The notes beneath the pieces are model-generated. The model did no database searches and was not told the origin of the DNA. It saw only the letters and a program-made list of their open reading frames with translations. From a phage, in assembly GCA_020773975.1 (NCBI GenBank), contig GCA_020773975.1_3638.1: a DNA stretch of 64,000 nucleotides; one strand, written 5' to 3'. The translations under genes and the position numbers were made by a program. Position 1 is the first letter of the stretch, and each line of letters starts with the position of its first letter. Below are positions 693 through 39,462 of the stretch, in pieces.

Positions 693-942
693 CATTATGT
701 TCAGAGTGGTTCGCAAGTCCACCCCCGCACCACTACGTGCTGCTGCATGTCACCATGCAGATCAGACTATATCTTCACACTTGGTGTGTCTACCATTTCG
801 AGTGTCATCGGCTTACACCCTACTCCGCTACATTCATCACGGTTAGTCGTTAGGCATTTACGGTTGATACCGATTTAGCACGGGATTCCCTCCATAGAGG
901 ATTTCCCCGTTTAGGCAGATTTTACATGAGCAGCTATAGTTT
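693..942 (-). mobile_element. Group I intron B (250 nt, ORF-less, T4-like IA2 type core)
   Basis: On the minus strand: P cuaaacggggaaaucc, Q gggaaucccgug, R gccuaacgacuaacc, S gaagauauagucu. Exon ends with U and intron ends with G. Joining the exons gives ...VTSMG|CRSFLS..., as in T4 NrdD. Confidence 0.65.
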
Positions 943-1242
943 ACCCATACTTGTAACACGCCCGTCTGAAGAACCTGTTACCTTTTTATTCAACGGTACA
1001 GATATGAAATCTGGATAAATCCTTTCAACACAACACTCCATAGCTAATTGCTTTAAGTCGTAGTTTGGATCGCCAGGCTTCATGTTTACACCATCTTCCA
1101 AGAAGAAGATAACTTTTGGAAAAACAGGTGTGACTTTATCTTTGCCAAGTCCGTTTTTGTGAACAAGAAGATAATTCTTTGTAATCATTCTCCCAAAATA
1201 AGAAGTATCAAGCCCAAGACTCAAGGTAATAAATGGGCATTG
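943..1242 (-). CDS. nrdD: NrdD exon 3 (QCPFITL...VTSMG)
   Basis: ORF 934..1245 matches the NrdD central region (GLGKDKVTPVFPK, DPNYDLKQLAMEC). Confidence 0.7.
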
Positions 1243-2721: not shown

Positions 2722-2991
2722 TTATTCCCCCAGTTCAGTATTAATAAACGCAATAAATTCATCTGCCGTACCAACATACACAGTATCGACACCGCACTCA
2801 TAGAAAATCCGTGGGACTGTTTTTGGGATAACAGGGGAACATTTTAAGACCAATTCCTCTTTGGTGAAGTCTTCTCCTAATTTCTTATAGATAAAGTTAA
2901 GTCCTTTTTGTTTTGCAAACTCTTTTGCTCTTACACAATGAGGGCAATTATCTTTTCCATAAATTAAAAACGTGCATTCTTTAAAGTTCAT
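2722..2991 (-). CDS. Glutaredoxin/thioredoxin-like redoxin (NrdH/NrdC-like)
   Basis: CPHC active-site motif in a ~90 aa protein between nrdD and nrdB. Start probably the internal Met (MNFKECTF) rather than 3024. Confidence 0.6.
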   Translation of the reverse strand: MNFKECTFLIYGKDNCPHCVRAKEFAKQKGLNFIYKKLGEDFTKEELVLKCSPVIPKTVPRIFYECGVDTVYVGTADEFIAFINTELGE

Positions 2992-2992
2992 C

Positions 2993-4081
2993 TTAAAAAT
3001 CCCAGATTTCTTCTTCTGCATCATTCACTGTGGTGTTAACACGATAATCTGTGTTAGACATTTCTTGGTTAGCCGTCTGCTGTAGCGCAGGATTCATCCA
3101 TACTTGCATAAACGGCAAAGGGTCTTTGGAAGGAGGGTTGAAGTCTCTATCAAATCCAAAATGATCATAGATAGGAGAACAATTATAGTCAACCCACTCT
3201 TTCAACAATGGTTCGTTAAGGCCAATGATTGCTCTACCATCACTGAAGATATAGTGACTCCAACTATACTCTTTTAGTCTAACTTCGTCAAGAATTTCTT
3301 TCAATTCATGTTTGATGGCATTAAAGCTGTTCAACCATACAGGGTCTTCTAACAGAATTTCAATAATTGCCAAGTCGTTCTTTGTGTGGAGAATCTCATC
3401 AAGCATTATTTTTTGCACAAGTTGTGCCACTTGAACAAAGATCCCTTGTTCAGCCAAGGCAAATGTGCACGCAAAACTGGATATGAACTCTATAGCTTCT
3501 AGGCCAAGCAGGGCAAACATAGCTCTCAGAATGCCTCTACGGGCTTCTTCTTTATCTATAGAAGCAGGATCCAGTCTGTATTTAGCACCAAGAACTTCCA
3601 GTTCGCGCATATATTTGACAATGACACCAGATCTGTTTAAAACTTCTTGGTTGTTTTGTACTTCCTCAATAATTTCTCGTGCATTTGGCAAACACTGTCT
3701 GACAATTTCTGAGTATGTCAAAGCATGAAGCACTTCGATTTCTGCCTGTTTCATCATCAAAGCGTATAATTCACTGTTTGTGATGAATGGGGCAAATAAA
3801 CAGATAATTGATTGCGCTGCAACACTATCAGCTTCCCATTGCCACATCAAAGTTTGCACCATAACATCATAGGTTGATTTACTGCATGTGGTAAAATCTG
3901 AAATTGATTGTACTAAATCAACTTCGTCTTCTGACCAGTCTTGCTCTTTTTGTTTTTTATATAAATCGAAAAGTTTTGGGTATTTTTTATTAATGGAGTC
4001 ATACATCCCCATCTGCTGACCAAGAAACAGAGGGTAATCCCCAGTTTTATGTGCTGTGTTTTCTGTATTGAATAATGCCAT
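2993..4081 (-). CDS. nrdB: Ribonucleotide reductase small subunit NrdB
   Basis: 362 aa; ferritin-like R2 motifs (EAIEFISSFACTFALAEQG, C-terminal tail ending EEEIWDF). Confidence 0.75.
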   Translation of the reverse strand: MALFNTENTAHKTGDYPLFLGQQMGMYDSINKKYPKLFDLYKKQKEQDWSEDEVDLVQSISDFTTCSKSTYDVMVQTLMWQWEADSVAAQSIICLFAPFITNSELYALMMKQAEIEVLHALTYSEIVRQCLPNAREIIEEVQNNQEVLNRSGVIVKYMRELEVLGAKYRLDPASIDKEEARRGILRAMFALLGLEAIEFISSFACTFALAEQGIFVQVAQLVQKIMLDEILHTKNDLAIIEILLEDPVWLNSFNAIKHELKEILDEVRLKEYSWSHYIFSDGRAIIGLNEPLLKEWVDYNCSPIYDHFGFDRDFNPPSKDPLPFMQVWMNPALQQTANQEMSNTDYRVNTTVNDAEEEIWDF

Positions 4082-28833: not shown

Positions 28834-29082
28834 ATGTTTAAATTAAAAATGGTTCTTAAGTCTGATAACGGGGAGTACGTAGAACATGAGTCTTTTCATA
28901 AAACACATGATGATGCGCTTGAAGAAGCGGATGATGTCGCTTTTTCTACAACTGGTTTTGGAATTGAATCCTGGAAATATATTGCATCGTTCGGTGAAGA
29001 AGGCGGGTTATATTATTTCTACCCCATCGAAGGGATTAGTACAACAAAGTACGTTATCAGGATCCTTAGAACAACCGTATAA
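28834..29082 (+). CDS. Hypothetical small protein
   Basis: ORF; an alternative overlapping frame exists at 28886..29143. Confidence 0.25.
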   Translation: MFKLKMVLKSDNGEYVEHESFHKTHDDALEEADDVAFSTTGFGIESWKYIASFGEEGGLYYFYPIEGISTTKYVIRILRTTV

Positions 29083-29415
29083 AAATCGTAAACAAAGACG
29101 TGCAGAAGCTGCAATGAAAAGATCGCGGAGAAAAGCAAGATGACCAAAACGTATACTGAAGAGACGCATAGACAAGTTGAGTTGTTGCTTTGTAGATTAC
29201 AACAATGCATTGACAGAGTTCGTATTTTACGTTTTGAGTTTGAAAATAATATCTCTTAATGTGAGGAATGTATGAAAAAAGGTATTGATTTTGAAAAAGA
29301 AGTTGGTTTCGGGGAAGGGTGTCATCAAGAAGAAAACTGGGATGTATGAAATTTTAAAATATCTCTTGACAATGTAGATCATACAGGATAACATCATCTC
29401 ATACCAAAGAGATAC

Positions 29416-29488
29416 GGCCCCTTAGCTCAGTGGTTAGAGCAGGTGACTCATAATCGCTTGGTCGCTGGTTCAAGTCCAGCAGGGGCCA
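29416..29488 (+). tRNA. tRNA-Met (anticodon CAT; could be initiator, elongator or lysidine-modified Ile2)
   Basis: Cloverleaf by eye: acceptor ggcccct/aggggcc, anticodon loop cuCAUaa, T-loop ttcaagt, 3' CCA encoded. Confidence 0.75.
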
Positions 29489-29543
29489 CCAAATGTGGCA
29501 CACGAAATAAACTAGGTTTATTGTTTTCGGAGGAGAAAACTTA

Positions 29544-29867
29544 ATGGCTAAGAAACAGTCTGCTAAAAAGGTATCAGCTATCGAGGCGATCAAGCAACCT
29601 TTTCAGTTTGAATCAAAATCCACGCAGACACATTCTGCACCGCACGATGTGCGTCTTGGTGGCAAAACGCAAACTGTAGCAGTTCTGAAAAAACGCAAAG
29701 ATGAAGACGGTAATACTGAAATGTATTATGAATCTGTGTCTCGTGTCATTGGTGGTGAAGTGATTTCTGCTTCCTATCGTATCCGTACTGGGAAAACAAA
29801 GCGTGAACGAGAAGTGAAACAGAAAACAAGCACTCCTGTAGAAAACGTTAAGAAAACTAAAAAATAA
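29544..29867 (+). CDS. Hypothetical basic protein
   Basis: ORF with RBS; lysine-rich. Confidence 0.35.
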   Translation: MAKKQSAKKVSAIEAIKQPFQFESKSTQTHSAPHDVRLGGKTQTVAVLKKRKDEDGNTEMYYESVSRVIGGEVISASYRIRTGKTKREREVKQKTSTPVENVKKTKK

Positions 29868-29943
29868 TTTACTGACGAGAGTGCCACCGTGAGCCAGCGT
29901 CATTAAACAAAGGGAATCACGGACATTCAGGAGGGTTGAGATT

Positions 29944-30138
29944 ATGATAGGATCTTTGCTTAAGATTGCAAGCGATGTAACAACAACGGCTGTTGAAGTG
30001 ACTGCTGCGGTAACAACTCCGTTTGTTGATTTAGCATCAGATGCTATAGCAGCAGCAGCAGACGAGATGATTTTGTCACCGACATCTGATCTTGTCCAAG
30101 ATCTTTGTGATTCTATAAAAGATGCTGTAAAAGATTAA
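29944..30138 (+). CDS. Hypothetical small protein
   Basis: ORF only. Confidence 0.3.
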   Translation: MIGSLLKIASDVTTTAVEVTAAVTTPFVDLASDAIAAAADEMILSPTSDLVQDLCDSIKDAVKD

Positions 30139-30211
30139 AATTTTTCTTGACATAGTTTTTGTTTTTCTGTATAGTTACTTTATCAAAGCTAATTTACATA
30201 TGAGAGATTGA

Positions 30212-30859
30212 ATGTCTACTAAGATTTCCGTAACTCGTGCACTTGCTTCTATCTCTAAGATTGAAGATAAGATCAATAAGCGTATTTATAACCTTGAATG
30301 TATTAAGATTGCAAAAGGAACTGAGAATAATTGTAAGATTCCTGGTTATATCGGCTCTGTTGATGATTTTAAGAAATCTGCGATCAACGACTATCAAAGT
30401 CTGCAAGACCTCTTGGCAGTTCGCGATGAACTGAAGGCAAAAATTGTCAAGTCTAATGCTGAGACAATTGTCAAAATTGGTAAGGTGTCTATGACAGTTG
30501 CTGAGGCAATCGAACGCAAACGGACGATTTGCTTTAAACAAGAGTTGTTAAACAAACTTTGTGCACAGCGTGCTTCTGCACAGCTTCTTCTGGCAAAAGA
30601 AGAAAAATCTCTGGAAGATAAACTTGAAAATGCCAGAGCGCCATATATCCAACGTGATAAAGCGCCAGATGCAGAGCAGATTAAGACTGTGGAAGCTCCC
30701 ATTCGAATGATGAACACACCATCGGTTGTGGATCCTCTTGAACTGGCTTCTAAGATTCGTTCTCTTGAAGAAGAGATTGAAGATTTCTTGTCTAACGTTG
30801 ATTTTGCGTTGTCTGAGTCAAACGCTAAGACAGAAATTGAGATTGAGCACTCTCTCTAA
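30212..30859 (+). CDS. Hypothetical protein (coiled-coil)
   Basis: ORF only. Confidence 0.35.
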   Translation: MSTKISVTRALASISKIEDKINKRIYNLECIKIAKGTENNCKIPGYIGSVDDFKKSAINDYQSLQDLLAVRDELKAKIVKSNAETIVKIGKVSMTVAEAIERKRTICFKQELLNKLCAQRASAQLLLAKEEKSLEDKLENARAPYIQRDKAPDAEQIKTVEAPIRMMNTPSVVDPLELASKIRSLEEEIEDFLSNVDFALSESNAKTEIEIEHSL

Positions 30860-31224
30860 AAGGCTCTGATAATATCATTATCGTTCCTTTGTTTTGAAAT
30901 TTAAAACATTGCTTTTGATTAACGAAGTTTACATCATCTTGCCTCCTGGGGATTGGAGGTTAAATATTCCCCACCATGTATCGTATATGTATGAGGATAA
31001 TACAGGACATAGATGCAGCGAGGCACACTAAGATGCCTTGTTGTTTCTACTAAGTAAAAGTTCATACAATAAAGGTCAATGGTCAAATGTAAAAGATGAA
31101 ACTTGAAAGTTAATTCTTGAAAGATAAAATTTCGTTTATCATCTGAAATCCTTGGCACAGGTTATGGCTCACAAGATATGGTCTGTAAAGCCTCAAGGCT
31201 GTTAATCGGAAGCAATGTCTTATT

Positions 31225-31296
31225 GCTCGTATAGCTCAACGGTAGAGCACCTGCCTTGTAAGCAGGGGGTTGCAGGTTCGAAACCTGCTGCGAGCA
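31225..31296 (+). tRNA. tRNA-Thr (anticodon TGT)
   Basis: Anticodon loop cuUGUaa, T-loop ttcgaaa, CCA encoded. Confidence 0.7.
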
Positions 31297-31301
31297 CCAA
31301 T

Positions 31302-31398
31302 GCTGGGTAAGCCCCTTGGCAAGGGCGAGGATTTATAATCCTGAAAATAGACGGGCTAGCCGTTGAATACATAGGTGGTTCGATTCCATCGCCCAGCT
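31302..31398 (+). tRNA. Atypical tRNA-like gene (~97 nt; canonical acceptor and T-arm, anticodon not confidently assignable)
   Basis: Acceptor gctgggt/gcccagc and T-arm ggtgg-ttcgatt-ccatc are canonical; the central region holds the palindrome aggatt-TAT-aatcct and a hairpin acgg-gctag-ccgt. Confidence 0.35.
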
Positions 31399-31598
31399 AC
31401 AAGTTTGTTTTATAGTGTATTAGCTTATATTATTCGATATAAATGCCTGATCAGCATTTGTTGGGAATGAGGCATACAATGCGTGAGAAAGCTATCGGTG
31501 CGCAACGTTGATTTCAAACGTATTCATGCTCGTAGAGCACCAACTGTGGAAGTTGGGGTGAGGTTGAGTAACCATACACTATAAAGCATTCTTATTCT

Positions 31599-31672
31599 CG
31601 GGGTGTAGCTCAGTTGGATAGAGCAGCGGCCTTCTAAGCCGTAGGTCACAGGTTCGAATCCTGTCTCCTCGA
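31599..31672 (+). tRNA. tRNA-Arg (anticodon TCT)
   Basis: D-arm tagctcagttggatagagca, anticodon loop cuUCUaa, T-loop ttcgaat, CCA encoded. Confidence 0.7.
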
Positions 31673-31751
31673 CCAGATTAACCCCAACTTGAGAATCGTC
31701 AGCGCGGCTCGTAAGACCCACTCTATAGGTTCTCTACTCGGGGTACTTATT

Positions 31752-31825
31752 GCACGGTTGCCGGAATTTGGTTACGGGTCTGTCTGCAAAACGGATATAT
31801 GTCGGTTCAAGTCCGACACCGTGCT
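31752..31825 (+). tRNA. tRNA-Cys (anticodon GCA)
   Basis: Acceptor gcacggt/accgtgc, anticodon loop cuGCAaa, T-loop ttcaagt, CCA encoded. Confidence 0.6.
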
Positions 31826-31865
31826 CCAAACTTTCAATTTCTTGGTAAATATGTTAAAATACCAC

Positions 31866-31894
31866 TTGACAGATATGTTTTTATTTGATAATAT
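31866..31894 (+). promoter_or_regulatory. Sigma70-like promoter (TTGACA-17-TAATAT)
   Basis: Near-consensus hexamers with 17 bp spacer ~20 nt upstream of the RBS/ATG at 31914. Confidence 0.55.
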
Positions 31895-31913
31895 CATTAA
31901 GTGGGGTTTTAAA

Positions 31914-32261
31914 ATGGCTACCAAGCAGCTTACAAAACGTAGAAGAGGAAAAGGTCGTCCTCTGAAAGAGGAATCTAATGCAATTCAGTTAGAGAAAAAT
32001 ATCCTAGATTTGAAAACGAATCTGATTGCAATGATTCCTGAAGCTCATCAGGTTCTTAGGGATTTGATGAAGAATGTGAATACAAAAGACAATATCAGAG
32101 AAAATATCGCTCGTTATGTTATTGAGAAAGGTGAGCAGATGCTTTCTGATTACTTTGATGAGGAAAACGAAGAGTTACTCGAAAAAGATAACTCAGAAAA
32201 AGCTCCTATTAAGGCAGCTAAACCATTCTCGACGGATATTGTTCAATTCAAACAAGGTTAA
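31914..32261 (+). CDS. Hypothetical basic protein (115 aa) inside the tRNA array
   Basis: ATG with upstream promoter; the longer ORF-track start at 31689 overlaps tRNA-Cys and is rejected. Confidence 0.4.
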   Translation: MATKQLTKRRRGKGRPLKEESNAIQLEKNILDLKTNLIAMIPEAHQVLRDLMKNVNTKDNIRENIARYVIEKGEQMLSDYFDEENEELLEKDNSEKAPIKAAKPFSTDIVQFKQG

Positions 32262-32262
32262 T

Positions 32263-32349
32263 GTGTCGTTAGACCGTAGGGGTAGCTGGGGAGACTGTAA
32301 ATCTCCTGTCTCGAAAGGGACTCGGGTAGTTCGACTCTATCACGGCACA
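32263..32349 (+). tRNA. tRNA-Tyr (anticodon GTA), class II with long variable arm
   Basis: Anticodon arm ggaga-cuGUAaa-tctcc, variable arm, T-loop ttcgact, CCA encoded. Confidence 0.65.
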
Positions 32350-32420
32350 CCAACTGAATCTGTACTGGCTTTGATGTGTGACGATACCCTCCAATCGTGG
32401 TTGTTGGGCCAGTACAGTTT

Positions 32421-32493
32421 GGGAGTGTAGATCAGTTAGTAGATCGCTCGACCGATAATCGAGAGGACGTAGGGGCAGAGCCTACCACTCCCA
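32421..32493 (+). tRNA. tRNA-like, apparent anticodon GAT (Ile), with non-canonical T-loop (possible pseudo-tRNA)
   Basis: Acceptor gggagtg/cactccc, anticodon arm ctcga-ccGAUaa-tcgag (C33), T-arm gtagg-GGCAGAG-cctac lacks the TTCRA consensus. Confidence 0.4.
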
Positions 32494-32501
32494 CCAAATA
32501 T

Positions 32502-32573
32502 GCATCCATAGTTTAATTGGGAAAACTACAGCCTTCCAAGCTGAAGTCGAGGGTTCGATACCCTCTGGATGCT
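32502..32573 (+). tRNA. tRNA-Gly (anticodon TCC)
   Basis: Acceptor gcatcca/tggatgc, anticodon loop cuUCCaa, T-loop ttcgata, CCA encoded. Confidence 0.65.
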
Positions 32574-32687
32574 CCAGTTAAAAGATGTCAATGAAATCCG
32601 CTTGGGTCAACTGAAGACCGTAACAAATTCCATGGTGTTGTGTTTGCGGTCCAACACCAGACATCTTCTATCTATGTACAGGCTTGA

Positions 32688-33251
32688 GTGCGTATGAGAT
32701 ACTTGAAATATTTATCGTGGATTCTGTTAGCACCTCTTGACCCAATTATGTCGGTTCTATGTGTTATTCTGGCTCCTTTTGTTGTTCCGTTCTATAATGA
32801 GAAGACAGGGCATCTACCTTATATTTTCAGGTGGATGGAAACATATGATAATCCTATAGATGGTGACAGAGGACACATAGAGAGATGGGAAGAAGTCCGT
32901 AAAATAGGAAGTTTTGGTGTTTACCTACAACGAGTTGCTTGGTTGTGGAGAAATAAAGCCTACAATTTTTCCTATCACGTACTTGGACGTGAAATCACAT
33001 CTGTGACAAAGTGGAAAGGAAACATCCATGTAAGCTCTGATGTGGAGGATAATCAACAAGGCTATTTGTTGATGTGGAATGACAATGCGTGGGGTGTATT
33101 CGCGTTTGTCCCGTCTTTTAGATTGTTTGGAAAACAATTTTACTGGCGAATTTATGTCGGTTGGAAACTGAAGAGTGTGGTTCCTGAAGACAGAGCTTTT
33201 TCAAGAGAGAGAGTGATGTTGGCATTTTTCATAAGTCCTTTCCGAAAATAG
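32688..33251 (+). CDS. Hypothetical membrane protein inside the tRNA array
   Basis: N-terminal hydrophobic helices (LSWILLAPLDPIMSVLCVILAPFVVPF); 187 aa. Confidence 0.4.
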   Translation: MRMRYLKYLSWILLAPLDPIMSVLCVILAPFVVPFYNEKTGHLPYIFRWMETYDNPIDGDRGHIERWEEVRKIGSFGVYLQRVAWLWRNKAYNFSYHVLGREITSVTKWKGNIHVSSDVEDNQQGYLLMWNDNAWGVFAFVPSFRLFGKQFYWRIYVGWKLKSVVPEDRAFSRERVMLAFFISPFRK

Positions 33252-33256
33252 TTTTT

Positions 33257-33336
33257 AATGAGAGTAGCGTAACTTCACTGGGTGAAGGCTGGCCTCCAAA
33301 ACCAGTGACTAAGAGGTTCGATTCCTCACTCTCGTG
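33257..33336 (+). tRNA. Non-canonical tRNA-like gene with apparent 8-bp acceptor / 4-bp T-stem, 6-bp D-stem; possible anticodon CCA
   Basis: Hand fold: acceptor atgagagt/actctcgt, D hairpin cttcac-tgg-gtgaag, anticodon arm gctgg(c)-cuCCAaa-(a)ccagt, T-arm gagg-ttcgatt-cctc. No CCA encoded. Confidence 0.35.
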
Positions 33337-33340
33337 CAAA

Positions 33341-33413
33341 AGGGGATTAGCATAGTGGCCTAATGCAACGGGCTTTGACCCCGTGATCGGTTGTTCGAAT
33401 CAACCATCCCCTG
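33341..33413 (+). tRNA. tRNA-Gln (anticodon TTG)
   Basis: Acceptor aggggat/atcccct, anticodon arm acggg-cuUUGac-cccgt, T-loop ttcgaat, CCA encoded. Confidence 0.7.
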
Positions 33414-33425
33414 CCAAGTTAAAAC

Positions 33426-33512
33426 GGAGAAGCAAATCGATTGGCGACGAAAACACATTGGAAATGTGCTGACTGGTAAAACGGATTGAGAGTTCGATTC
33501 TCTCCTTCTCCG
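33426..33512 (+). tRNA. tRNA-Ser (anticodon GGA), class II
   Basis: Acceptor ggagaag/cttctcc, anticodon loop uuGGAaa, long variable region, T-arm gagag-ttcgatt-ctctc, G73, CCA encoded. Confidence 0.6.
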
Positions 33513-33549
33513 CCAGTTTTTAATTACTAAGGTATTGGAAGATTAACCC

Positions 33550-33627
33550 TAATTTGGTAAGGGGTCTCCCTGCTGAGGAGATAGTAACCCAGAAATGGGT
33601 GTGACAGTTCGATTCTGTCAGCCTCCT
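33550..33627 (+). tRNA. tRNA-like element with canonical T-arm, acceptor 3' strand and CCA but non-canonical 5' half (GNRA hairpin where the anticodon arm should be)
   Basis: T-arm gacag-ttcgatt-ctgtc, then agcctcc-t-cca; upstream hairpin accca-GAAA-tgggt. The 5' boundary is uncertain. Confidence 0.3.
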
Positions 33628-33857
33628 CCAAGTTATCTTTAATGTAGCTTGTTATTCTTACTTTAGCAGAGTAAATCTTCGGCAAGTGGCGGTAACCACT
33701 TTACCGATACCCCAGAGCAGTCCGCTCTTTACTGGCGTAAGTCAAACACTCATGATGGTCATGTAATCGTAATCTATCATTAGTGTGCCCTCCCTAGAGG
33801 GCTGTTGCGTATAGCTAATTATGTGCGAGTAATTAGCTATTTTAAAGATAATTTAAA

Positions 33858-33931
33858 GGATCTGTAGCCAAATGGTTTAAGGCACTCGACTTTTAATCGA
33901 GGGATTGTTAGTTCGAATCTAACCAGATCCA
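33858..33931 (+). tRNA. tRNA-Lys (anticodon TTT)
   Basis: Acceptor ggatctg/cagatcc, anticodon arm ctcga-cuUUUaa-tcgag, T-loop ttcgaat, CCA encoded. Confidence 0.75.
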
Positions 33932-33953
33932 CCAAAATATTCTGGTTCTTTGA

Positions 33954-34041
33954 CCGAGTGGTCGATGGTGACGGCCTGTTAAGCCGTTGGGAGGAATCTC
34001 CCCACCGAAGGTTCGAATCCTTCAGGAACCGCCAATTCTTG
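33954..34041 (+). tRNA. Class II (Ser-like, long variable arm, G73) tRNA carrying apparent anticodon GTT (Asn codons)
   Basis: Acceptor ggttctt/aggaacc, D-arm acc-gagtggtcgat-ggt, anticodon arm acggc-cuGUUaa-gccgt, variable hairpin gggag-gaat-ctccc, T-arm gaagg-ttcgaat-ccttc, G73, CCA encoded. Confidence 0.5.
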
Positions 34042-34120
34042 ACTTAATCAAGTCACAGATATCACCTAGCCAGCGATACCAGTTAGTAGATTCTGGGACA
34101 ATTAAAATCTACATCTCTCT

Positions 34121-34195
34121 CTGTCCGTAGCGCAGCTTGGGTAGCGCGGGTCACTTGGGATGATCAGGTCGTTGGTTCAAATCCAACCGGACAGA
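34121..34195 (+). tRNA. tRNA-Pro (anticodon TGG)
   Basis: D-arm gcgc-agcttgggta-gcgc, anticodon arm ggtca-cuUGGga-tgatc, T-loop ttcaaat, CCA encoded. Confidence 0.7.
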
Positions 34196-34240
34196 CCAAC
34201 AAACATATACATATCAAAGCAGAAATGTACAGAGGATACC

Positions 34241-34432
34241 ATGTTAACAGTTAAAGTCGTATCTCCAAATGATGAACAAATTTTTTGTGGCAAAATTGTT
34301 GGGTATTGTGCTCATCAAAAGTCTATAGCTATTTCAGGTATTGACCAAAAAGTGTTTTTGTCTGAGGATCAGACAGCTTATGTTATCAATGCCAATGGGA
34401 AAACTATTTCTGTGTATCGTGGAAAACCATAA
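34241..34432 (+). CDS. Hypothetical small protein (63 aa)
   Basis: ATG with SD agagga; the longer ORF-track start overlaps tRNA-Pro and is rejected. Confidence 0.35.
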   Translation: MLTVKVVSPNDEQIFCGKIVGYCAHQKSIAISGIDQKVFLSEDQTAYVINANGKTISVYRGKP

Positions 34433-34446
34433 CTGTTGATATAAAT

Positions 34447-34520
34447 GGGCGATTGATGGAATTGGTATACATGTCAGGCTTAGAACCTGAATTTTGGGGG
34501 TTCGAGTCCCTCATCGCCTA
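34447..34520 (+). tRNA. Class I tRNA with apparent anticodon TAG (Leu codon CUA) but no long variable arm; A73
   Basis: Acceptor gggcgat/atcgcct, anticodon arm tcagg-cuUAGaa-cctga, 5-nt variable loop, T-arm ggggg-ttcgagt-ccctc, CCA encoded. Confidence 0.5.
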
Positions 34521-34528
34521 CCAATCAT

Positions 34529-34601
34529 GTGACGGTAACTCAGTTGGTAGAGTGCCTTGCTGAAGACTAGGTGGTCACAGGTTCGAACCCTGTCCGTCAC
34601 A
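34529..34601 (+). tRNA. tRNA-Phe (anticodon GAA)
   Basis: Acceptor gtgacgg/ccgtcac, D-arm actc-agttggta-gagt, anticodon loop cuGAAga, T-loop ttcgaac, CCA encoded. Confidence 0.7.
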
Positions 34602-34610
34602 CCAAATTAT

Positions 34611-34686
34611 TGCAGAGTGGTGGAAATGGATTTACCATGTTAGGTTCATACCCTGAAGATTGCAGGTTCGACTCCTGCCTCTGCAT
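34611..34686 (+). tRNA. Second CAT-anticodon tRNA (Met or Ile2)
   Basis: Acceptor tgcagag/ctctgca, anticodon arm ttagg-uuCAUac-cctga, T-loop ttcgact, CCA encoded. Confidence 0.6.
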
Positions 34687-34707
34687 CCAAGAATAAGAGA
34701 GAGTATT

Positions 34708-35133
34708 TTGAAAATATGTGGTTGTTGTAATAAATTAAAGGATTTCTCTGAGTTTAGTAAAAAATCAGCAGCAAAAGACGGTTATGCAAGTAAATGTAAA
34801 GAGTGCCACAATAACTATGTTAGAACTAAATGGTATCCTAGGAATAAAAAGAAGCACATCTCTTCCGTAGCTAAATATAAGAAGCTAAACCCTTATAAAA
34901 TAATTTCACATAGGTATGGTATACCAGAAGATATTGTTGAAAATATAATGTCAAAAGGTGAATGCGAGATTTGTGGCTCAACAGAAAATCTTGTTTTTGA
35001 TCATATACATCTGACAAATACTGCTAGAGGATGTCTTTGTACTCTATGTAATATAATGATTGGAAGATTGGGTGATACGAACGAAGAGATTTTAGAAAAA
35101 CTCCCTAAAATTTTAGCCTATGTAAGTAAATAA
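34708..35133 (+). CDS. Endonuclease VII-like (HNH/His-Cys box) nuclease, possible freestanding homing endonuclease
   Basis: C-terminal VFDHIHLTNTARGCLCTLCNIMIG matches the T4 endonuclease VII family signature. Probable TTG start after the GAGAG RBS; the ORF-track start overlaps the tRNA. Confidence 0.5.
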   Translation: MKICGCCNKLKDFSEFSKKSAAKDGYASKCKECHNNYVRTKWYPRNKKKHISSVAKYKKLNPYKIISHRYGIPEDIVENIMSKGECEICGSTENLVFDHIHLTNTARGCLCTLCNIMIGRLGDTNEEILEKLPKILAYVSK

Positions 35134-35140
35134 AATTTTG

Positions 35141-35165
35141 ATTGGTTCGATTCCAATACTCGCAA
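35141..35165 (+). pseudogene. Orphan tRNA 3' fragment (T-arm plus acceptor 3' strand plus CCA) without a matching 5' half
   Basis: attgg-ttcgatt-ccaat-actcgca-a-cca directly after the endonuclease VII-like ORF. Confidence 0.4.
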
Positions 35166-35298
35166 CCAGAATTAAAGTGGACACTAAGGAAGGTCGTGGC
35201 TGAGTAAACGGTAAGACACTCTCGACATGTAAAGGTTCCTTCGCCACTTTTCTCAAATAACTATAATAATAATCCAATCAATCTCCTCTCCTATGCCT

Positions 35299-35326
35299 AA
35301 CCCCGCCTCTTGCGGGGTTTTTCTTT
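35299..35326 (+). terminator. Rho-independent terminator closing the tRNA array
   Basis: ccccgc-ctctt-gcgggg hairpin followed by tttttcttt. Confidence 0.6.
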
Positions 35327-35373
35327 ATGTGCTAGTCTTTACGCATCTTGTTTTGTACTCAAGGATAGCTAAG

Positions 35374-36711
35374 ATGTTGCATGTTTTCAAAAAAGAAGAT
35401 TTTCAAAGAGAGTACGACATTTTGTGCTCTTTTATACCAAAAGGTGTTTATGATTTATTGTCGAAGCTGGATGTTAAGATAGCTGGCGGTGCAATAACCT
35501 CTTTGTTCTCTAATAGTAAAGTCAACGATCTTGATTTGTATTTCCCATCTTGGGAAAGCCTTGAGATATTCATTGCGTACATGATGGATAAAAATCTCTT
35601 AGGTGGAAAGTATGATTTAGCCGCACAGACAAACGGATGGGGAAATCAAAAAAGAACTTTTAGGTATTTTTATAACCTTGATAATGGGCAGGGTTCTCAT
35701 TTAGGTTTCACAGATCCTTTGTCAAGATGTAAAAATCTTCATTTTGAAGATGAAGATCTTCCAAACCTTACCAGAGTTGGTGTAACCGATAAGAGTGTGA
35801 TGCTGTACTTTGGGAAAGACCCTGTATTACAGTGTGTTGCTGTGGATGTGTTCAAAACAACAGAAGATATCTTTAGCAAAGTTGATTTTACAATCAACAT
35901 GGGCGCTTTTAACTTCAAGGATGGTGTGTGGGAATTTGATAGCAATTTCTTAAAACATATTGCTCAAAGGGTTTTAGTTGTAAATCATAAGACTGAATAC
36001 CCGATTATATCACTTTTGAGATCTGAAAAATATAAATCTCGTGGTTATACAATTTCGAAAAAAGAGACAATGAAACTGGCTATGACCATTGCTAGCCTTC
36101 AGATACAAAGTTGGGAATCGGCAAAGTCACATCTTAGCGGGATGTACGGAATGAAACTGTCTGATATCTTTGATGAGACAAAGCCGTTTTCACTTGATTT
36201 TTTGGTTGAGTGTCTAGACAGATTAGAATCTGGTTGCCAGCAGATAGACAAAAATGTTACCCCTGTGCAACCGTTGCCGTTTAATGATGTGTCCCAAGTT
36301 AATATGTTCAGTATTTTCCAAAGATTAAGAAAAGCAACAGGCAGGAAATACTTTACAAAACTATATGGGGTTTGTCCTGCTGAAGTTTTCTATCTTATGA
36401 TGCCAACAAAAGATACACATTATGTTGGGCTTCACAAAGAAGATATAGCAAATAATTTTCCAACTCTCAGACTTTATGTTGATGAAACGGAGGCAAGAGG
36501 AGAGTACAAAATTCTGTGTGAGAACGGAGAGATAGATGGCTATGGGTTTACAATATATCGGCCAGGTGCAGTTCTGTTAAAGGTTTCTGTAAGCGATACG
36601 TCAAAGATCCAATACGATATAGGTTATTTTAATGATTTGTGTATTTCTGAAAACAGAAAAACAACACTGAAAATTGAAAACATTATTGAGTGTGATGGGG
36701 ATATATCATGA
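35374..36711 (+). CDS. Hypothetical protein with possible minimal nucleotidyltransferase-fold motif
   Basis: 445 aa from internal Met (MLHVFKKEDF). IAGGAITS...x12...DLDLYF resembles the [GS]-x(9-13)-Dh[DE] motif of Pol-beta-type NTases; weak. Confidence 0.35.
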   Translation: MLHVFKKEDFQREYDILCSFIPKGVYDLLSKLDVKIAGGAITSLFSNSKVNDLDLYFPSWESLEIFIAYMMDKNLLGGKYDLAAQTNGWGNQKRTFRYFYNLDNGQGSHLGFTDPLSRCKNLHFEDEDLPNLTRVGVTDKSVMLYFGKDPVLQCVAVDVFKTTEDIFSKVDFTINMGAFNFKDGVWEFDSNFLKHIAQRVLVVNHKTEYPIISLLRSEKYKSRGYTISKKETMKLAMTIASLQIQSWESAKSHLSGMYGMKLSDIFDETKPFSLDFLVECLDRLESGCQQIDKNVTPVQPLPFNDVSQVNMFSIFQRLRKATGRKYFTKLYGVCPAEVFYLMMPTKDTHYVGLHKEDIANNFPTLRLYVDETEARGEYKILCENGEIDGYGFTIYRPGAVLLKVSVSDTSKIQYDIGYFNDLCISENRKTTLKIENIIECDGDIS

Positions 36712-39081: not shown

Positions 39082-39111
39082 TGCAATATACCTTTATAGG
39101 TTTCGATGAGG
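39082..39111 (+). CDS. terL: Terminase large subunit, micro-exon 2a (Walker B region ...QYTFIGFDEG)
   Basis: In-frame segment between two intron cores encoding a hhhhDE Walker B-like motif; stop follows within 6 codons unless spliced. Confidence 0.45.
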
Positions 39112-39462
39112 GTAGAACAGTGTGCTCTCTATAAACCCCTTTAATTGACGGGTAACTCTTTATACATATCACCACTAAGTAGGTATGGTAACATATTTAT
39201 GGTCAACGGTAATGACGTTGAGTATAGTAACAGTGTGAATGTTTAGACAATCCGCAGCGAAGCATCCCTACGGGATGAACGTTCAACGACTATCGCTTAC
39301 GGGCGTTAGGGCCAAGCGGTGAGGGAAACCTCCGGTTGATTATCAACCGCCGAAACAGGGGGGTGTGTAATAACACACAAGATATAGTCTGATCTGCATG
39401 GTGACATGCAGCAGCACGTAGTGGTGCGGGATAAGAGTAGCGATCTTATCTGAACAAAAACG
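39112..39462 (+). mobile_element. Group I intron 2 in terL (~351 nt, ORF-less)
   Basis: Q aauccgcagc (39246), R guucaacgacuaucg, S aagauauagucu (39381), then the shared block cugcauggugacaugcagcagcacguaguggugcggg. Ends in G before ACA CAA TTC... Confidence 0.6.

What the first reader, a model, noticed from the sequence alone, without database searches (positions are those of the whole stretch)
34708..35165. Endonuclease VII-like nuclease gene followed by an orphan tRNA 3' half
A His-Cys box / endonuclease VII-family ORF sits inside the tRNA array and is immediately followed by a perfect T-arm, acceptor 3' strand and CCA with no corresponding 5' half. This is the footprint expected if a homing-endonuclease-type gene inserted into, or recombined away, part of a tRNA gene.
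Basis: partly seen in the sequence, partly recalled or inferred. Interest (0 to 1): 0.4.

Follow-up and report, generated by a model that had tools for sequence, protein, structure and literature searches.

The report
Nuclease cassette that overwrote a phage tRNA
A small mobile nuclease gene, travelling together with its own tRNA gene, has replaced most of a resident tRNA gene in this phage and left that gene's last 29 bases behind as a scar; this is a new example of a known kind of selfish element.

Summary
ORF 34708-35133 (141 aa, TTG start) is an Endonuclease VII-motif (DHHRN, beta-beta-alpha-Me) nuclease. It is followed at 35140-35168 by a perfect T-arm, acceptor 3' strand and ACCA with no 5' half. 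This is the only orphan of that motif in the window.

Related phages explain it.
- Av-05 lacks the nuclease and has an intact tRNA(CAT) whose 3' end matches the orphan.
- An otherwise unrelated 144-kb phage contig carries the same 533-bp unit (34607-35139: tRNA(CAT) "A1", spacer, nuclease), followed by a different orphan.
- In another relative the nuclease sits between the 5' and 3' parts of one tRNA(CAT) gene.
- Phage 18-1-2 and three others have lost the nuclease by recombination between the two GGTTCGA T-loops, leaving a misfolding chimeric tRNA.

All nine examined genomic contexts of homologs with at least 47% identity lie in tRNA arrays. Six carry a T-loop-to-CCA remnant 3-12 nt after the stop codon. 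None of 38 distant homologs does.

Best reading: a free-standing homing endonuclease cassette that targets phage tRNA(CAT) genes, analogous to T4 SegB but from the F-CphI nuclease family. Cleavage specificity is inferred, not shown. It is a new member of a known kind and of moderate interest.

The parts
34529..34604 (+). tRNA-Phe(GAA). Its 3' end (CACCAAA, to 34606) is the last base shared with Av-05 before the cassette, so it marks the left flank.
   Evidence: ARAGORN; Rfam 66 bits; homology with Av-05 ends at 34606.
34607..35139 (+). The 533-bp mobile unit: TTAT, tRNA(CAT) A1, an 18-nt spacer, the nuclease ORF, then AATTTT.
   Evidence: Two independent comparisons give the same two boundaries. 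Av-05 lacks the unit, and homology breaks at 34606|34607 and 35139|35140. L049 is an otherwise unrelated contig that carries it: tRNA and spacer are 100% identical apart from one extra T, the ORF matches at 410 of 426 nt, and similarity ends just past 35139.
34611..34689 (+). Intact tRNA(CAT) 'A1'. It is cargo of the cassette and a functional replacement candidate for the destroyed resident tRNA(CAT).
   Evidence: ARAGORN; Rfam 52.1 bits; the minimum-energy fold is a cloverleaf. It is 100% identical in L049, 92% in L052 and 84% in KP13-26, but only 43-47% identical to class B tRNAs.
34690..34707 (+). Spacer AGAATAAGAGAGAGTATT carrying a purine-rich, Shine-Dalgarno-like (GA)n run. The run length differs among close relatives.
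   Evidence: Sequence; L009 and L010 have one and two extra GA.
34708..35133 (+). Nuclease gene, 141 aa. It has an N-terminal CxxC...CxxC zinc-ribbon-like region and a C-terminal Endo VII/DHHRN beta-beta-alpha-Me catalytic motif: C86, C89, D98, H99, H101, R107, C111, C114, N115.
   Evidence: Pfam PF02945, E 1e-11; the listed residues are invariant in 10 homologs; profile match to Hpy99I at E 6e-11 and alignment to T4 Endo VII residues C23/C26, D40, H41, H43, R54, C58/C61, N62; the predicted fold matches Hpy99I (prob 1.0) and T4 Endo VII (prob 0.82).
35140..35168 (+). Orphan 3' part (about positions 48-76) of the resident class B tRNA(CAT): T arm, acceptor 3' strand, discriminator A, CCA. It is the scar of the replaced gene.
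   Evidence: Over 35140-35170 it matches the 3' end of the intact Av-05 tRNA at 30 of 31 positions; it is the only orphan of this motif in the window; no tRNA is called there.
34665..34671 (+). GGTTCGA in the T loop of tRNA A1: left copy of the 7-nt direct repeat across which the nuclease was deleted in phages 18-1-2, 19-1-2, 24-2-1 and TH18.
   Evidence: The two alignment blocks against L001 overlap by 11 nt at L001 3862-3872; alignment; coordinates.
35144..35150 (+). GGTTCGA in the T loop of the orphan: right copy of the same direct repeat. The repeats are 479 bp apart.
35171..35298 (+). Highly conserved non-coding stretch between the orphan and the terminator. It is the right-hand anchor shared by all Vequintavirinae compared. 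It is context, not part of the cassette.
   Evidence: Nine-genome alignment, mean column identity 87%; consensus structure with few compensatory pairs.
35299..35319 (+). Intrinsic terminator-like hairpin plus T run that ends the tRNA operon. The nuclease ORF therefore lies inside the tRNA transcription unit.
   Evidence: conserved with one compensatory pair.

Best explanation
The segment 34607-35139 is a mobile cassette. It consists of an intact tRNA(CAT) gene (A1) followed by a free-standing homing-endonuclease-type gene of the Endo VII-motif (DHHRN, F-CphI/Hpy99I-like) family.

In an ancestor of this Avunavirus phage the cassette replaced everything between the 3' end of tRNA-Phe and about position 47 of a resident class B tRNA(CAT) gene. 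The last 29 bases of that gene (T arm, acceptor 3' strand, ACCA) remain at 35140-35168 as a non-functional scar.

The inferred mechanism is intronless homing.
1. In a mixed infection the nuclease cuts the intact class B tRNA(CAT) gene of a cassette-free phage, in or near its variable-loop/T-arm region.
2. The break is resected.
3. It is repaired from the cassette-bearing genome, using the short conserved tRNA sequences on either side as homology: the ...CACCAAA end of the upstream tRNA, and the T arm with the acceptor 3' end.
4. The carrier genome is immune because its target is destroyed. It keeps a CAT-anticodon tRNA because the cassette brings A1.

The nuclease is probably transcribed as part of the tRNA operon and translated weakly from a TTG start.

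Shown: the boundaries of the unit, its presence in unrelated genomes, the intact target in a sister phage, the split target in a relative, the secondary loss, and the conserved catalytic residues.

Inferred: that the protein is an active, site-specific DNA endonuclease; where it cuts; and that the spread is nuclease-driven.
For: 1. Empty site. Av-05 is 97% identical up to 34606 and again from 35140. In between it has a small unrelated ORF (phrog_7065) and a complete 76-nt tRNA(CAT). That tRNA folds as a cloverleaf (-27.6 kcal/mol, z -3.6), matches the tRNA clan at E 1e-4, and its 3' end is the orphan.

2. The same unit elsewhere. L049 comes from a 144-kb contig with no other nucleotide or translated similarity to the window beyond short tRNA-gene matches. 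Its tRNA A1 and spacer are 100% identical apart from one extra T, and its ORF is 96% identical (9 synonymous and 7 non-synonymous codon differences). Its orphan matches the window's at only 25 of 31 positions, with a compensatory T-stem change (ATTGG/CCAAT versus ATGGG/CCCAT). Similarity stops at the CCA. The two orphans therefore descend from different functional resident tRNAs hit at the same position.

3. Split target. In L051 the nuclease lies between positions 1-38 and about 48-76 of one class B tRNA(CAT); TGCGAGT pairs with ACTCGCA.

4. Recurrence. All nine contexts of homologs with at least 47% identity lie in tRNA arrays. Six have a T-loop/acceptor/CCA remnant starting 3-12 nt after the stop. 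KpS8 and LNA4 have a 12-nt acceptor/CCA remnant of the other tRNA(CAT) class. None of 38 homologs at 51% identity or less (at most 38% for those matching most of the protein) has such a remnant or a tRNA within 1.3 kb.

5. Secondary loss. 18-1-2 and three other records carry the A1 5' part fused to the class B 3' part across the 7-nt GGTTCGA repeat. The chimera does not fold as a cloverleaf and falls below Rfam's tRNA threshold. A1 is absent from Av-05, so the chimera can only derive from a cassette-bearing ancestor.

6. The protein. D98, H99, H101, R107, N115 and four zinc cysteines are invariant. The motif is C-terminal, as in the endonuclease clade of Fang et al. 2018 (PMC6083498). Av-05 and 18-1-2 lack the gene, so it is dispensable.

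7. Precedent. T4 SegB lies in a tRNA cluster, recognises the T-psi-C stem-loop DNA, cuts the 3' ends of tRNA genes and drags neighbouring tRNA genes along (PMC2330249).

8. Operon context. A terminator follows at 35299, and no better-than-background promoter lies between the tRNAs and the ORF.
Against: - No cleavage assay or cross exists, so activity and target site are inferred from scars alone.
- The flanking homology available for repair is very short, which makes classical homing inefficient. Some events may have been illegitimate recombination.
- The upstream companion tRNA is not universal. APT65, L050 and L053 have no CAT tRNA directly upstream. In LNA4 the upstream class B tRNA is resident (99% identical to that of nuclease-free NINP13076), and there the short A2 remnant appears to have travelled with the nuclease rather than marking an in-situ hit.
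- tRNA arrays recombine through T-loop microhomology without any nuclease. The 18-1-2 deletion shows this, and NDO71 has an orphan T-arm-like piece with no nuclease nearby.
- Nucleotide identity in the nuclease region is not clearly higher than in the neighbouring tRNA region among the closest relatives, so there is no sharp sweep signature within the genus.
- Only one of five structure models was confident.
Confidence: 0.75

Rival explanations
1. Bystander nuclease. The tRNA fragment is a product of ordinary recombination among tRNA genes in a plastic array, through T-loop microhomology. The Endo VII-like gene is an unrelated accessory gene (for repair, recombination or anti-competitor functions) that happens to sit in the gap.
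For: A 7-nt T-loop repeat was enough to delete 479 bp in the 18-1-2 lineage. NDO71 has another orphan T-arm-like piece with no nuclease beside it. Content between the tRNAs differs widely among relatives.
Against: The remnant starts 3-12 nt after the stop codon in six of nine close-clade contexts from at least four unrelated phage backgrounds, and in none of 38 distant homologs. The same 533-bp unit has the same two boundaries in two unrelated genomes. In L051 the ORF lies exactly between the two parts of one tRNA gene. Chance juxtaposition does not predict any of this.
Confidence: 0.12
2. Exapted RNA element. The retained T-arm hairpin plus ACCA is kept because it works in the transcript. It could protect the 3' end of the nuclease mRNA or act as a processing signal, by analogy with the proposed control of segB by tRNA maturation cleavage next to its stop codon. 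It would then be more than a neutral scar.
For: A perfect 5-bp T stem is kept in the window, L049, L051 and L053, with a compensatory change between the window and L049. The element always abuts the stop codon. The SegB paper proposes that tRNA processing beside the stop codon modulates segB expression.
Against: L009 and L010 have CCA changed to CTA. L052 and APT65 have imperfect stems. KpS8 and LNA4 keep only 12 nt. The isolated element folds weakly (-6.3 kcal/mol, z -1.3). The compensatory change is equally well explained by descent from two functional tRNAs. Without the acceptor 5' strand it is not an RNase P minihelix substrate (established knowledge, not tested here).
Confidence: 0.08
3. 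Interrupted but functional tRNA. The ORF lies in an intron, or the tRNA is assembled from separately encoded halves, and a mature tRNA containing the orphan is made.
For: Group I introns occur in bacterial tRNA genes and elsewhere in this very window (743-981 and 39086-39411). L051 keeps both halves around the ORF.
Against: The window has no 5' half. ARAGORN in intron mode is negative. No group I or other ribozyme match lies between 34690 and 35140, or around the L051 ORF, at permissive thresholds. In L051 the anticodon-stem 3' strand and variable loop (about 10 nt) are missing, so splicing could not restore a cloverleaf. The ORF fills almost the whole insert, leaving no room for a ribozyme core.
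Confidence: 0.02
4. The ORF is the phage's Holliday-junction resolvase (the T4 gp49 function), and its position is incidental.
For: It is named 'endonuclease VII' in Pfam, PHROGs and GenBank annotations of homologs.
Against: The gene is missing from Av-05 and the 18-1-2 group. Of these, Av-05 (complete circular record) and TH18 (133.9 kb) are full-length or near-full-length records. Only the 39-residue catalytic motif aligns with T4 Endo VII, at E 0.94, and no counterpart of its C-terminal dimerisation domain is present. The best structural and sequence relative is the site-specific enzyme Hpy99I. The motif is C-terminal, as in the endonuclease clade rather than the resolvase clade.
Confidence: 0.03

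Closest known systems
T4 SegB, a free-standing GIY-YIG homing endonuclease in the T4 tRNA gene cluster (Brok-Volchanskaya et al. 2008, PMC2330249; Chihara et al. 2026, PMC13096335)
   Same: It is a free-standing nuclease gene inside a phage tRNA operon. It is absent from close relatives. It is associated with replacement of the neighbour's tRNA genes and with co-transfer of flanking tRNA genes. SegB recognises T-psi-C stem-loop DNA and cuts at the 3' ends of tRNA genes, which is where the junctions lie here. Expression is probably by read-through of the tRNA operon.
   Different: The catalytic family is unrelated (Endo VII/DHHRN beta-beta-alpha-Me, not GIY-YIG). The scars point mainly to one tRNA type (CAT anticodon, ...CGCA-N-CCA end), whereas SegB-associated tRNAs show no isotype preference. 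Here a specific replacement tRNA is physically part of a compact 533-bp unit. Activity is untested.
F-CphI (cyanophage S-PM2 ORF177) and the DHHRN homing endonuclease family (Fang et al. 2018, PMC6083498)
   Same: It has the same catalytic motif (CxxC, D-H-x-H, R, CxxC-N) in the C-terminal half of a small protein. Phage-encoded homologs are free-standing or intron-encoded. It clusters with Hpy99I-like site-specific enzymes rather than with resolvases.
   Different: F-CphI targets the intron insertion site of psbA and cooperates with a group I intron. Here the target is a tRNA gene and no intron is involved. Sequence identity to cyanophage homologs is only about 30-35%.
T5 F-TflI, F-TflII and F-TflIV, HNH endonucleases encoded in the T5 tRNA gene region (cited in PMC2330249)
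   Same: They are beta-beta-alpha-Me superfamily nucleases encoded among phage tRNA genes.
   Different: They belong to a different HNH subfamily. No described scar or companion-tRNA architecture is known to me. I did not compare the sequences here.
Genes split by insertion of a free-standing homing endonuclease gene, such as nrdA split by mobE in phage Aeh1 (reviewed in Edgell et al. 2010, PMC2988022; recalled from that literature, not re-read in detail)
   Same: Insertion of a homing endonuclease gene divides a host gene into two pieces. L051 shows exactly this for a tRNA gene.
   Different: The split protein gene remains functional as two polypeptides. A tRNA cut in this way is dead, so function must be supplied by another copy: here, the companion tRNA A1.
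Integrase-mediated insertion into tRNA genes, which leaves a duplicated tRNA 3' end at the far attachment site
   Same: A tRNA 3' fragment lies at one end of an inserted element, next to an intact tRNA at the other end.
   Different: There is no integrase. The intact tRNA (A1) and the fragment (class B) are different genes, 43-47% identical as classes, not a duplication. The element is 533 bp and sits in a lytic phage genome.

Membership tests
Endo VII-motif (DHHRN) homing/site-specific endonuclease clade, Pfam PF02945 | Endonuclease_7 domain above Pfam's gathering score | tested here: met
   44.9 bits against a cut-off of 23.6, E 1.1e-11, residues 69-128.
Endo VII-motif (DHHRN) homing/site-specific endonuclease clade, Pfam PF02945 | Conserved D, H, H, R, N catalytic residues and two CxxC zinc ligand pairs | tested here: met
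   C86/C89, D98, H99, H101, R107, C111/C114 and N115 are invariant in 10 homologs. They align with T4 Endo VII C23/C26, D40, H41, H43, R54, C58/C61 and N62. The definition comes from PMC6083498.
Endo VII-motif (DHHRN) homing/site-specific endonuclease clade, Pfam PF02945 | Motif in the C-terminal part of the protein (endonuclease clade), not N-terminal with a C-terminal dimerisation domain (resolvase clade) | tested here: met
   The motif occupies residues 86-115 of 141. The best solved relative is Hpy99I (E 5.8e-11), which also matches the N-terminal CxxC region. T4 Endo VII matches only at E 0.94 over 39 residues.
Endo VII-motif (DHHRN) homing/site-specific endonuclease clade, Pfam PF02945 | Beta-beta-alpha-Me fold | tested here: met
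   The AlphaFold2 model has mean pLDDT 91.7, but the other four models reach only 66-70. Foldseek matches Hpy99I at prob 1.00 and T4 Endo VII at prob 0.82.
Endo VII-motif (DHHRN) homing/site-specific endonuclease clade, Pfam PF02945 | Site-specific double-strand cleavage of the allele that lacks the gene | not testable with these tools
   This needs purified protein and Av-05-type target DNA.
Free-standing homing endonuclease gene (functional class) | Patchy presence among otherwise collinear close relatives, and presence in unrelated genomes | tested here: met
   Absent from Av-05 and the 18-1-2 group. Present with an identical protein in L008-L010, and at 95% amino-acid identity in the unrelated L049.
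Free-standing homing endonuclease gene (functional class) | Defined insertion boundaries, with the target sequence disrupted in carriers and intact in non-carriers | tested here: met
   The boundaries 34606|34607 and 35139|35140 are seen in two independent comparisons. The class B tRNA is intact in Av-05, truncated here and split in L051.
Free-standing homing endonuclease gene (functional class) | Nuclease-dependent super-Mendelian inheritance in mixed infection | not testable with these tools
   This needs phage crosses.
SegB family (GIY-YIG) | GIY-YIG catalytic domain | tested here: not met
   Pfam and PHROGs give only Endo VII/HNH-type matches. The ORF is analogous to SegB, not homologous.
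Intron-containing or split tRNA gene | Both tRNA halves present, and an intervening self-splicing ribozyme or a splice-competent junction | tested here: not met
   The window has no 5' half. ARAGORN intron mode is negative. No ribozyme match is found. In L051 about 10 nt of the tRNA are missing.
T4 endonuclease VII-type Holliday junction resolvase | Full-length similarity to gp49, including the C-terminal dimerisation domain, and conservation in all relatives | tested here: not met
   Only the catalytic motif aligns. The gene is absent from sister phages, including the complete Av-05 genome.
Integrase-borne island in a tRNA gene | Adjacent integrase, and a duplicated tRNA 3' end identical to that of the intact tRNA | tested here: not met
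   There is no integrase among the flanking ORFs. The orphan belongs to class B, which is 43-47% identical to class A1 tRNAs.

The most novel reading that the evidence does not exclude
The cassette may act as a 'poison plus spare part' unit: a nuclease that destroys one allele of a phage tRNA(CAT) gene and carries a resistant, functionally equivalent tRNA(CAT) allele. Mirror-image arrangements may then compete at one locus. The window has tRNA-Phe | A1 + nuclease | class B remnant. KpS8 has tRNA-Phe | class B + nuclease | class A2 remnant. Related nuclease-free phages have either A2 alone (PVP-SE1, KP12) or B alone (NINP13076). If so, nucleases of this clade drive reciprocal allele replacement and horizontal spread of tRNA genes across unrelated phage families (Vequintavirinae, phi92-like phages, Aeromonas phage APT65). 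Given the recent SegB results, they might also supply tRNAs that counter tRNA-targeting host defences.
Probability: 0.3. Interest if true: 0.6.

Novelty: new member of a known kind. Interest (0 to 1): 0.42.

Why it matters
The result gives a clean, sequence-resolved series for a selfish nuclease acting on a non-coding RNA gene. The series has four states: intact target (Av-05), split target (L051), target overwritten by nuclease plus replacement tRNA (this window and L049), and nuclease lost with a chimeric dead tRNA left behind (18-1-2).

It extends the SegB paradigm of homing endonucleases living in, and reshuffling, phage tRNA arrays to a second, unrelated nuclease family. It also shows that a tRNA gene can be moved between unrelated phages as cargo of a roughly 0.5-kb unit.

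There are practical consequences for annotation.
- The 'endonuclease VII' labels on these genes are best read as a probable homing endonuclease, not a resolvase.
- ARAGORN calls the chimeric tRNA-Met in 18-1-2 (these records carry no tRNA features), but it is probably a pseudogene.
- Orphan tRNA 3' ends next to such ORFs are scars, not genes.

Tried and rejected
- **Search for the missing 5' half in the window.** The only other TGCGAGT (33824) is the loop side of a local hairpin, ATAGCTAATTA...TAATTAGCTAT, and 2 hits is below the chance expectation of 4.2. Rejected.
- **ARAGORN with introns allowed up to 1 kb.** It called nothing new. At an 80% threshold it called a 93-nt 'tRNA-Stop(tta)' at 35076-35168, with a 4 of 7 acceptor stem built from ORF sequence. 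Rejected.
- **Rfam at E<=10 over 29000-36000.** No RNA family matched the orphan, and the only match inside the ORF is an E 1.6 chance snoRNA hit. Around the L051 and L053 ORFs there is no ribozyme match; Rfam gives only a 17-nt tmRNA-model match on the L053 remnant.
- **IMG/VR scan with a four-protein alignment.** It returned only distant homologs (at most 51% identity, and at most 38% for those matching most of the protein), none near tRNAs. I used them as a negative control, not as relatives.
- **Exact-pattern scans for the ORF-end/junction 23-mer.** IMG/VR gave none. JGI metagenomes gave one hit, which was a chance match in unrelated DNA.
- **Sliding identity among the closest relatives, looking for a sweep signature.** The nuclease region is about 100% identical, but so are the neighbouring tRNAs. 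Uninformative.
- **Av-05 ORF005 as a possible degenerate nuclease.** It is a conserved phage ORF of unknown function (phrog_7065) with no nuclease signal.
- **Conserved stretch 35171-35262 as a structured RNA.** The single-sequence fold is unremarkable (z -0.35). The alignment gives a plausible structure with only two or three compensatory pairs. Left as a side note.
- **Paralogs of the nuclease in the window.** A profile of the clade searched against all six-frame ORFs of at least 50 aa found only the ORF itself.
Full report
**What is in the sequence**

The window is part of an Avunavirus-like coliphage (Vequintavirinae). The best nucleotide matches are Escherichia phages 18-1-2, 19-1-2, 24-2-1 and TH18 (96%) and Av-05 (92%).

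A co-oriented tRNA array runs from 29416 to 34689. Directly after the last intact tRNA, a CAT-anticodon tRNA at 34611-34689, come:
- an 18-nt purine-rich spacer;
- an ORF from a TTG at 34708 to a TAA at 35131-35133;
- six bases further on, G-ATTGG-TTCGATT-CCAAT-ACTCGCA-A-CCA at 35140-35168.

About 130 nt further on there is an intrinsic terminator at 35299-35319.

The orphan is the only one of 16 T-arm/acceptor/CCA motifs in the window that lies outside a tRNA, and the minus strand has none. No program finds a complete tRNA over it.

**The protein**

The 141-aa product matches Pfam Endonuclease_7 (E 1e-11) and PHROG 'endonuclease VII' families.

In ten homologs the residues C86, C89, D98, H99, H101, R107, C111, C114 and N115 are invariant. 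A profile aligns them with the zinc ligands and catalytic residues of T4 endonuclease VII (C23/C26, D40, H41, H43, R54, C58/C61, N62). The only strong solved relative, however, is the site-specific restriction enzyme Hpy99I (E 6e-11), which also matches the N-terminal CxxC...CxxC region. A structure model agrees: Hpy99I at prob 1.0 and T4 Endo VII at prob 0.82. Only one of the five models was confident.

This is the 'DHHRN' arrangement that Fang et al. defined for the cyanophage homing endonuclease F-CphI. The motif is C-terminal, as in their endonuclease clade and unlike their resolvase clade (PMC6083498). The gene is absent from Av-05 and the 18-1-2 group, so it is not an essential resolvase. 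No paralog lies in the window.

**Comparative anatomy of the locus**

In the Vequintavirinae compared, the locus reads tRNA-Phe | X | a highly conserved non-coding stretch | terminator. Three classes of CAT-anticodon tRNA occupy X:
- **A1:** the window, L049, L052, KP13-26.
- **A2:** PVP-SE1, EspYZU15, KP12, NDO71.
- **B:** Av-05, KpS8, LNA4, NINP13076.

Av-05 is collinear with the window up to 34606 and again from 35140. In between it has a small ORF of unknown function (phrog_7065) and an intact 76-nt class B tRNA at L002 4054-4129. That tRNA has a cloverleaf minimum-energy fold (z -3.6) and a tRNA-clan match at E 1e-4. Its 3' end is the window's orphan, matching at 30 of 31 positions over 35140-35170. 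This is the 'empty site'.

**The mobile unit**

A protein search found only seven close relatives, all in tRNA arrays.

The 95%-identical protein lies on a 144-kb contig, L049. That contig shares nothing else with the window at nucleotide or translated level beyond short tRNA-gene matches. From ...CACCAAATTAT through tRNA A1 and the spacer it is identical to the window apart from one extra T. The ORF matches at 410 of 426 nt (9 synonymous and 7 non-synonymous codon differences). Identity continues to TAAAATTTTGAT.

The following orphan in L049 matches the window's at only 25 of 31 positions, with a compensatory change in the T stem, and all similarity ends at the CCA. Two independent comparisons therefore give the same boundaries, 34607 and 35139, for a 533-bp unit made of a tRNA gene and the nuclease gene. 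The two orphans must derive from two different, once-functional resident tRNAs truncated at the same position.

The window's A1 is closest to the tRNAs of L052 and the phi92-like phage KP13-26 (92% and 84% identical) and only 60-67% identical to the Vequintavirinae A2 class. This suggests the cassette came from outside the subfamily.

**Split target and recurrence**

In L051 (72% identical nuclease) positions 1-38 of a class B tRNA(CAT) lie 27 nt upstream of the ORF. The sequence is TGCGAGT-TA-GAAT-TCTGGTGA-ATTC-G-TGGGT-CTCATAA. G-AGTTG-TTCGATT-CAACT-ACTCGCA-T-CCA follows the stop codon directly. About 10 nt of the tRNA are missing, and there is no ribozyme match. This is a tRNA gene physically split by the nuclease gene.

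Remnants of the same kind start 3-12 nt after the stop in L052, L053 and Aeromonas phage APT65. KpS8 and LNA4 keep only the last 12 nt of an A2 tRNA, inside an extended ORF end. L050 has no clear remnant.

The totals are:
- nine of nine close-clade contexts lie in tRNA arrays;
- six of nine carry the full T-loop-to-CCA motif;
- none of 38 distant homologs from IMG/VR has the motif or a tRNA within 1.3 kb.

All but one remnant end in ...CGCA-[A/T]-CCA, which points to one target tRNA family.

**Secondary loss**

Phages 18-1-2, 19-1-2, 24-2-1 and TH18 lack the nuclease. At the same place they carry a 79-nt sequence made of the 5' part of A1 joined, inside the shared GGTTCGA of the T loop, to the 3' part of class B. 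The two repeat copies lie at 34665-34671 and 35144-35150, 479 bp apart.

The chimera has a mismatched T stem and acceptor stem. It does not fold as a cloverleaf and is below Rfam's tRNA threshold, although ARAGORN calls it tRNA-Met. A1 is otherwise absent from Av-05, so this state can only descend from a cassette-bearing genome.

In L009 and L010, which encode the identical nuclease protein, the orphan has drifted from CCA to CTA. That is expected of a pseudogene.

**Mechanism**

The best-supported reading is a free-standing homing endonuclease cassette that targets phage tRNA(CAT) genes.

T4 SegB is the precedent. It is encoded in a tRNA cluster, recognises the T-psi-C stem-loop DNA, cuts the 3' ends of tRNA genes, and carries neighbouring tRNA genes into T2 (PMC2330249). 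SegB homologs are generally associated with tRNAs (PMC13096335).

Here the junctions cluster at tRNA positions about 44-51, just 5' of or inside the T stem. This is where I would place the cleavage or recombination site, by inference only. The carrier is immune because the target is destroyed, and it keeps a CAT tRNA because A1 comes with the nuclease. Location inside the tRNA operon, the lack of a promoter of its own and a non-ATG start in most members fit low, controlled expression.

Not shown: enzymatic activity, the recognition site, and nuclease dependence of the spread.

Complications:
- The companion tRNA is not universal.
- In LNA4 the short remnant seems to have travelled with the nuclease into a genome whose class B tRNA is intact.
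- The flanking homologies are short.
- T-loop microhomology alone can rearrange these arrays.

**Rivals**

I considered four alternatives and rate all of them low; the reasons are in the rival section.
- A bystander nuclease sitting in a recombining array.
- An exapted RNA end-protection or processing element.
- An intron or split but functional tRNA.
- A Holliday-junction resolvase.

**Novelty**

Homing endonucleases in phage tRNA clusters are known (SegB, the T5 F-Tfl enzymes), and so are Endo VII-motif homing endonucleases (F-CphI). I found no paper describing this clade, its tRNA(CAT) scars or the tRNA-plus-nuclease unit. GenBank records label the homologs 'endonuclease VII' or 'hypothetical protein'.

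I therefore class it as a new member of a known kind. The possible added twist is a nuclease-plus-replacement-tRNA unit and mirror-image arrangements at one locus. Interest is moderate.

Noticed in passing
window 35171-35298 (terminator at 35299-35319): The non-coding stretch between the orphan and the terminator is almost invariant across Avunavirus, Seunavirus and Mydovirus genomes, far more conserved than the neighbouring coding DNA. RNAalifold proposes a nested structure with two inner pairs that change on both sides. A single-sequence fold is unremarkable (z -0.35), and no Rfam family matches. Its position, at the end of the tRNA operon, recalls the T4 species I and II RNAs.
   Followed up: partly
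window 35368-36711: The next gene carries a precomputed Pfam PF26128 (Gad2, anti-Gabija) hit in the contig index. The local Pfam copy gives no hit. It has a GG...DLD nucleotidyltransferase-like motif near its N-terminus. Two blocks (about 35600-35800 and 36450-36650) drop to 63-80% identity among relatives that are otherwise 94-100% identical.
   Followed up: partly
window 743-981 (-) and 39086-39411 (+): Two group I intron matches score above the Rfam gathering threshold (74.7 and 67.9 bits). The second probably lies in the large terminase gene, where Av-05 also has a match (L002 7532 onward).
   Followed up: no
window 32421-32493; also 33262-33333 and 31301-31398: Rfam finds a good tRNA (53.4 bits) at 32421-32493 that ARAGORN misses. 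The other two sites give weaker tRNA-clan matches.
   Followed up: no
window 34697-34704; L009 and L010 about 2985-3000: The (GA)n run in the Shine-Dalgarno-like spacer before the nuclease start varies in length: the window has AAGAGAGAG, L009 one more GA, and L010 two more. This could tune translation of the nuclease.
   Followed up: no
window 33631-33857, compared with L001 2734-2822 and L002 2748-2836: 18-1-2 and Av-05 have a tRNA-Ser(TGA) between tRNA-Ser(GCT) and tRNA-Lys that is not called in the window. Identity of L001, L002 and L010 to the window drops to 70-77% at 33601-33750.
   Followed up: no
L057 (Klebsiella phage NDO71) about 970-1000: Another orphan T-arm-like piece (GCAGG-TTCAAGT-CCTGT) follows tRNA-Phe inside a roughly 170-nt insert with no nuclease gene nearby. 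tRNA fragments can therefore arise or persist here without this nuclease.
   Followed up: no
L010 2951-2967: In one metagenomic relative the cassette's tRNA A1 has a T loop of TTAGACT, so the conserved C56 is replaced by A. The companion tRNA may be decaying in that lineage.
   Followed up: no
L055 (NINP13076) 1131-1195 and L006 (LNA4) 1915-1980: A small, conserved element of about 60 nt ending in CCACCA (GTGGTATCCAGGAACAGTCCTGCACCGTAAG.GTCCCTCA.TAGGGA.CACCCCACCA) lies between the CAT tRNA or nuclease and the conserved stretch in some Seunavirus genomes. It is not called as a tRNA.
   Followed up: no
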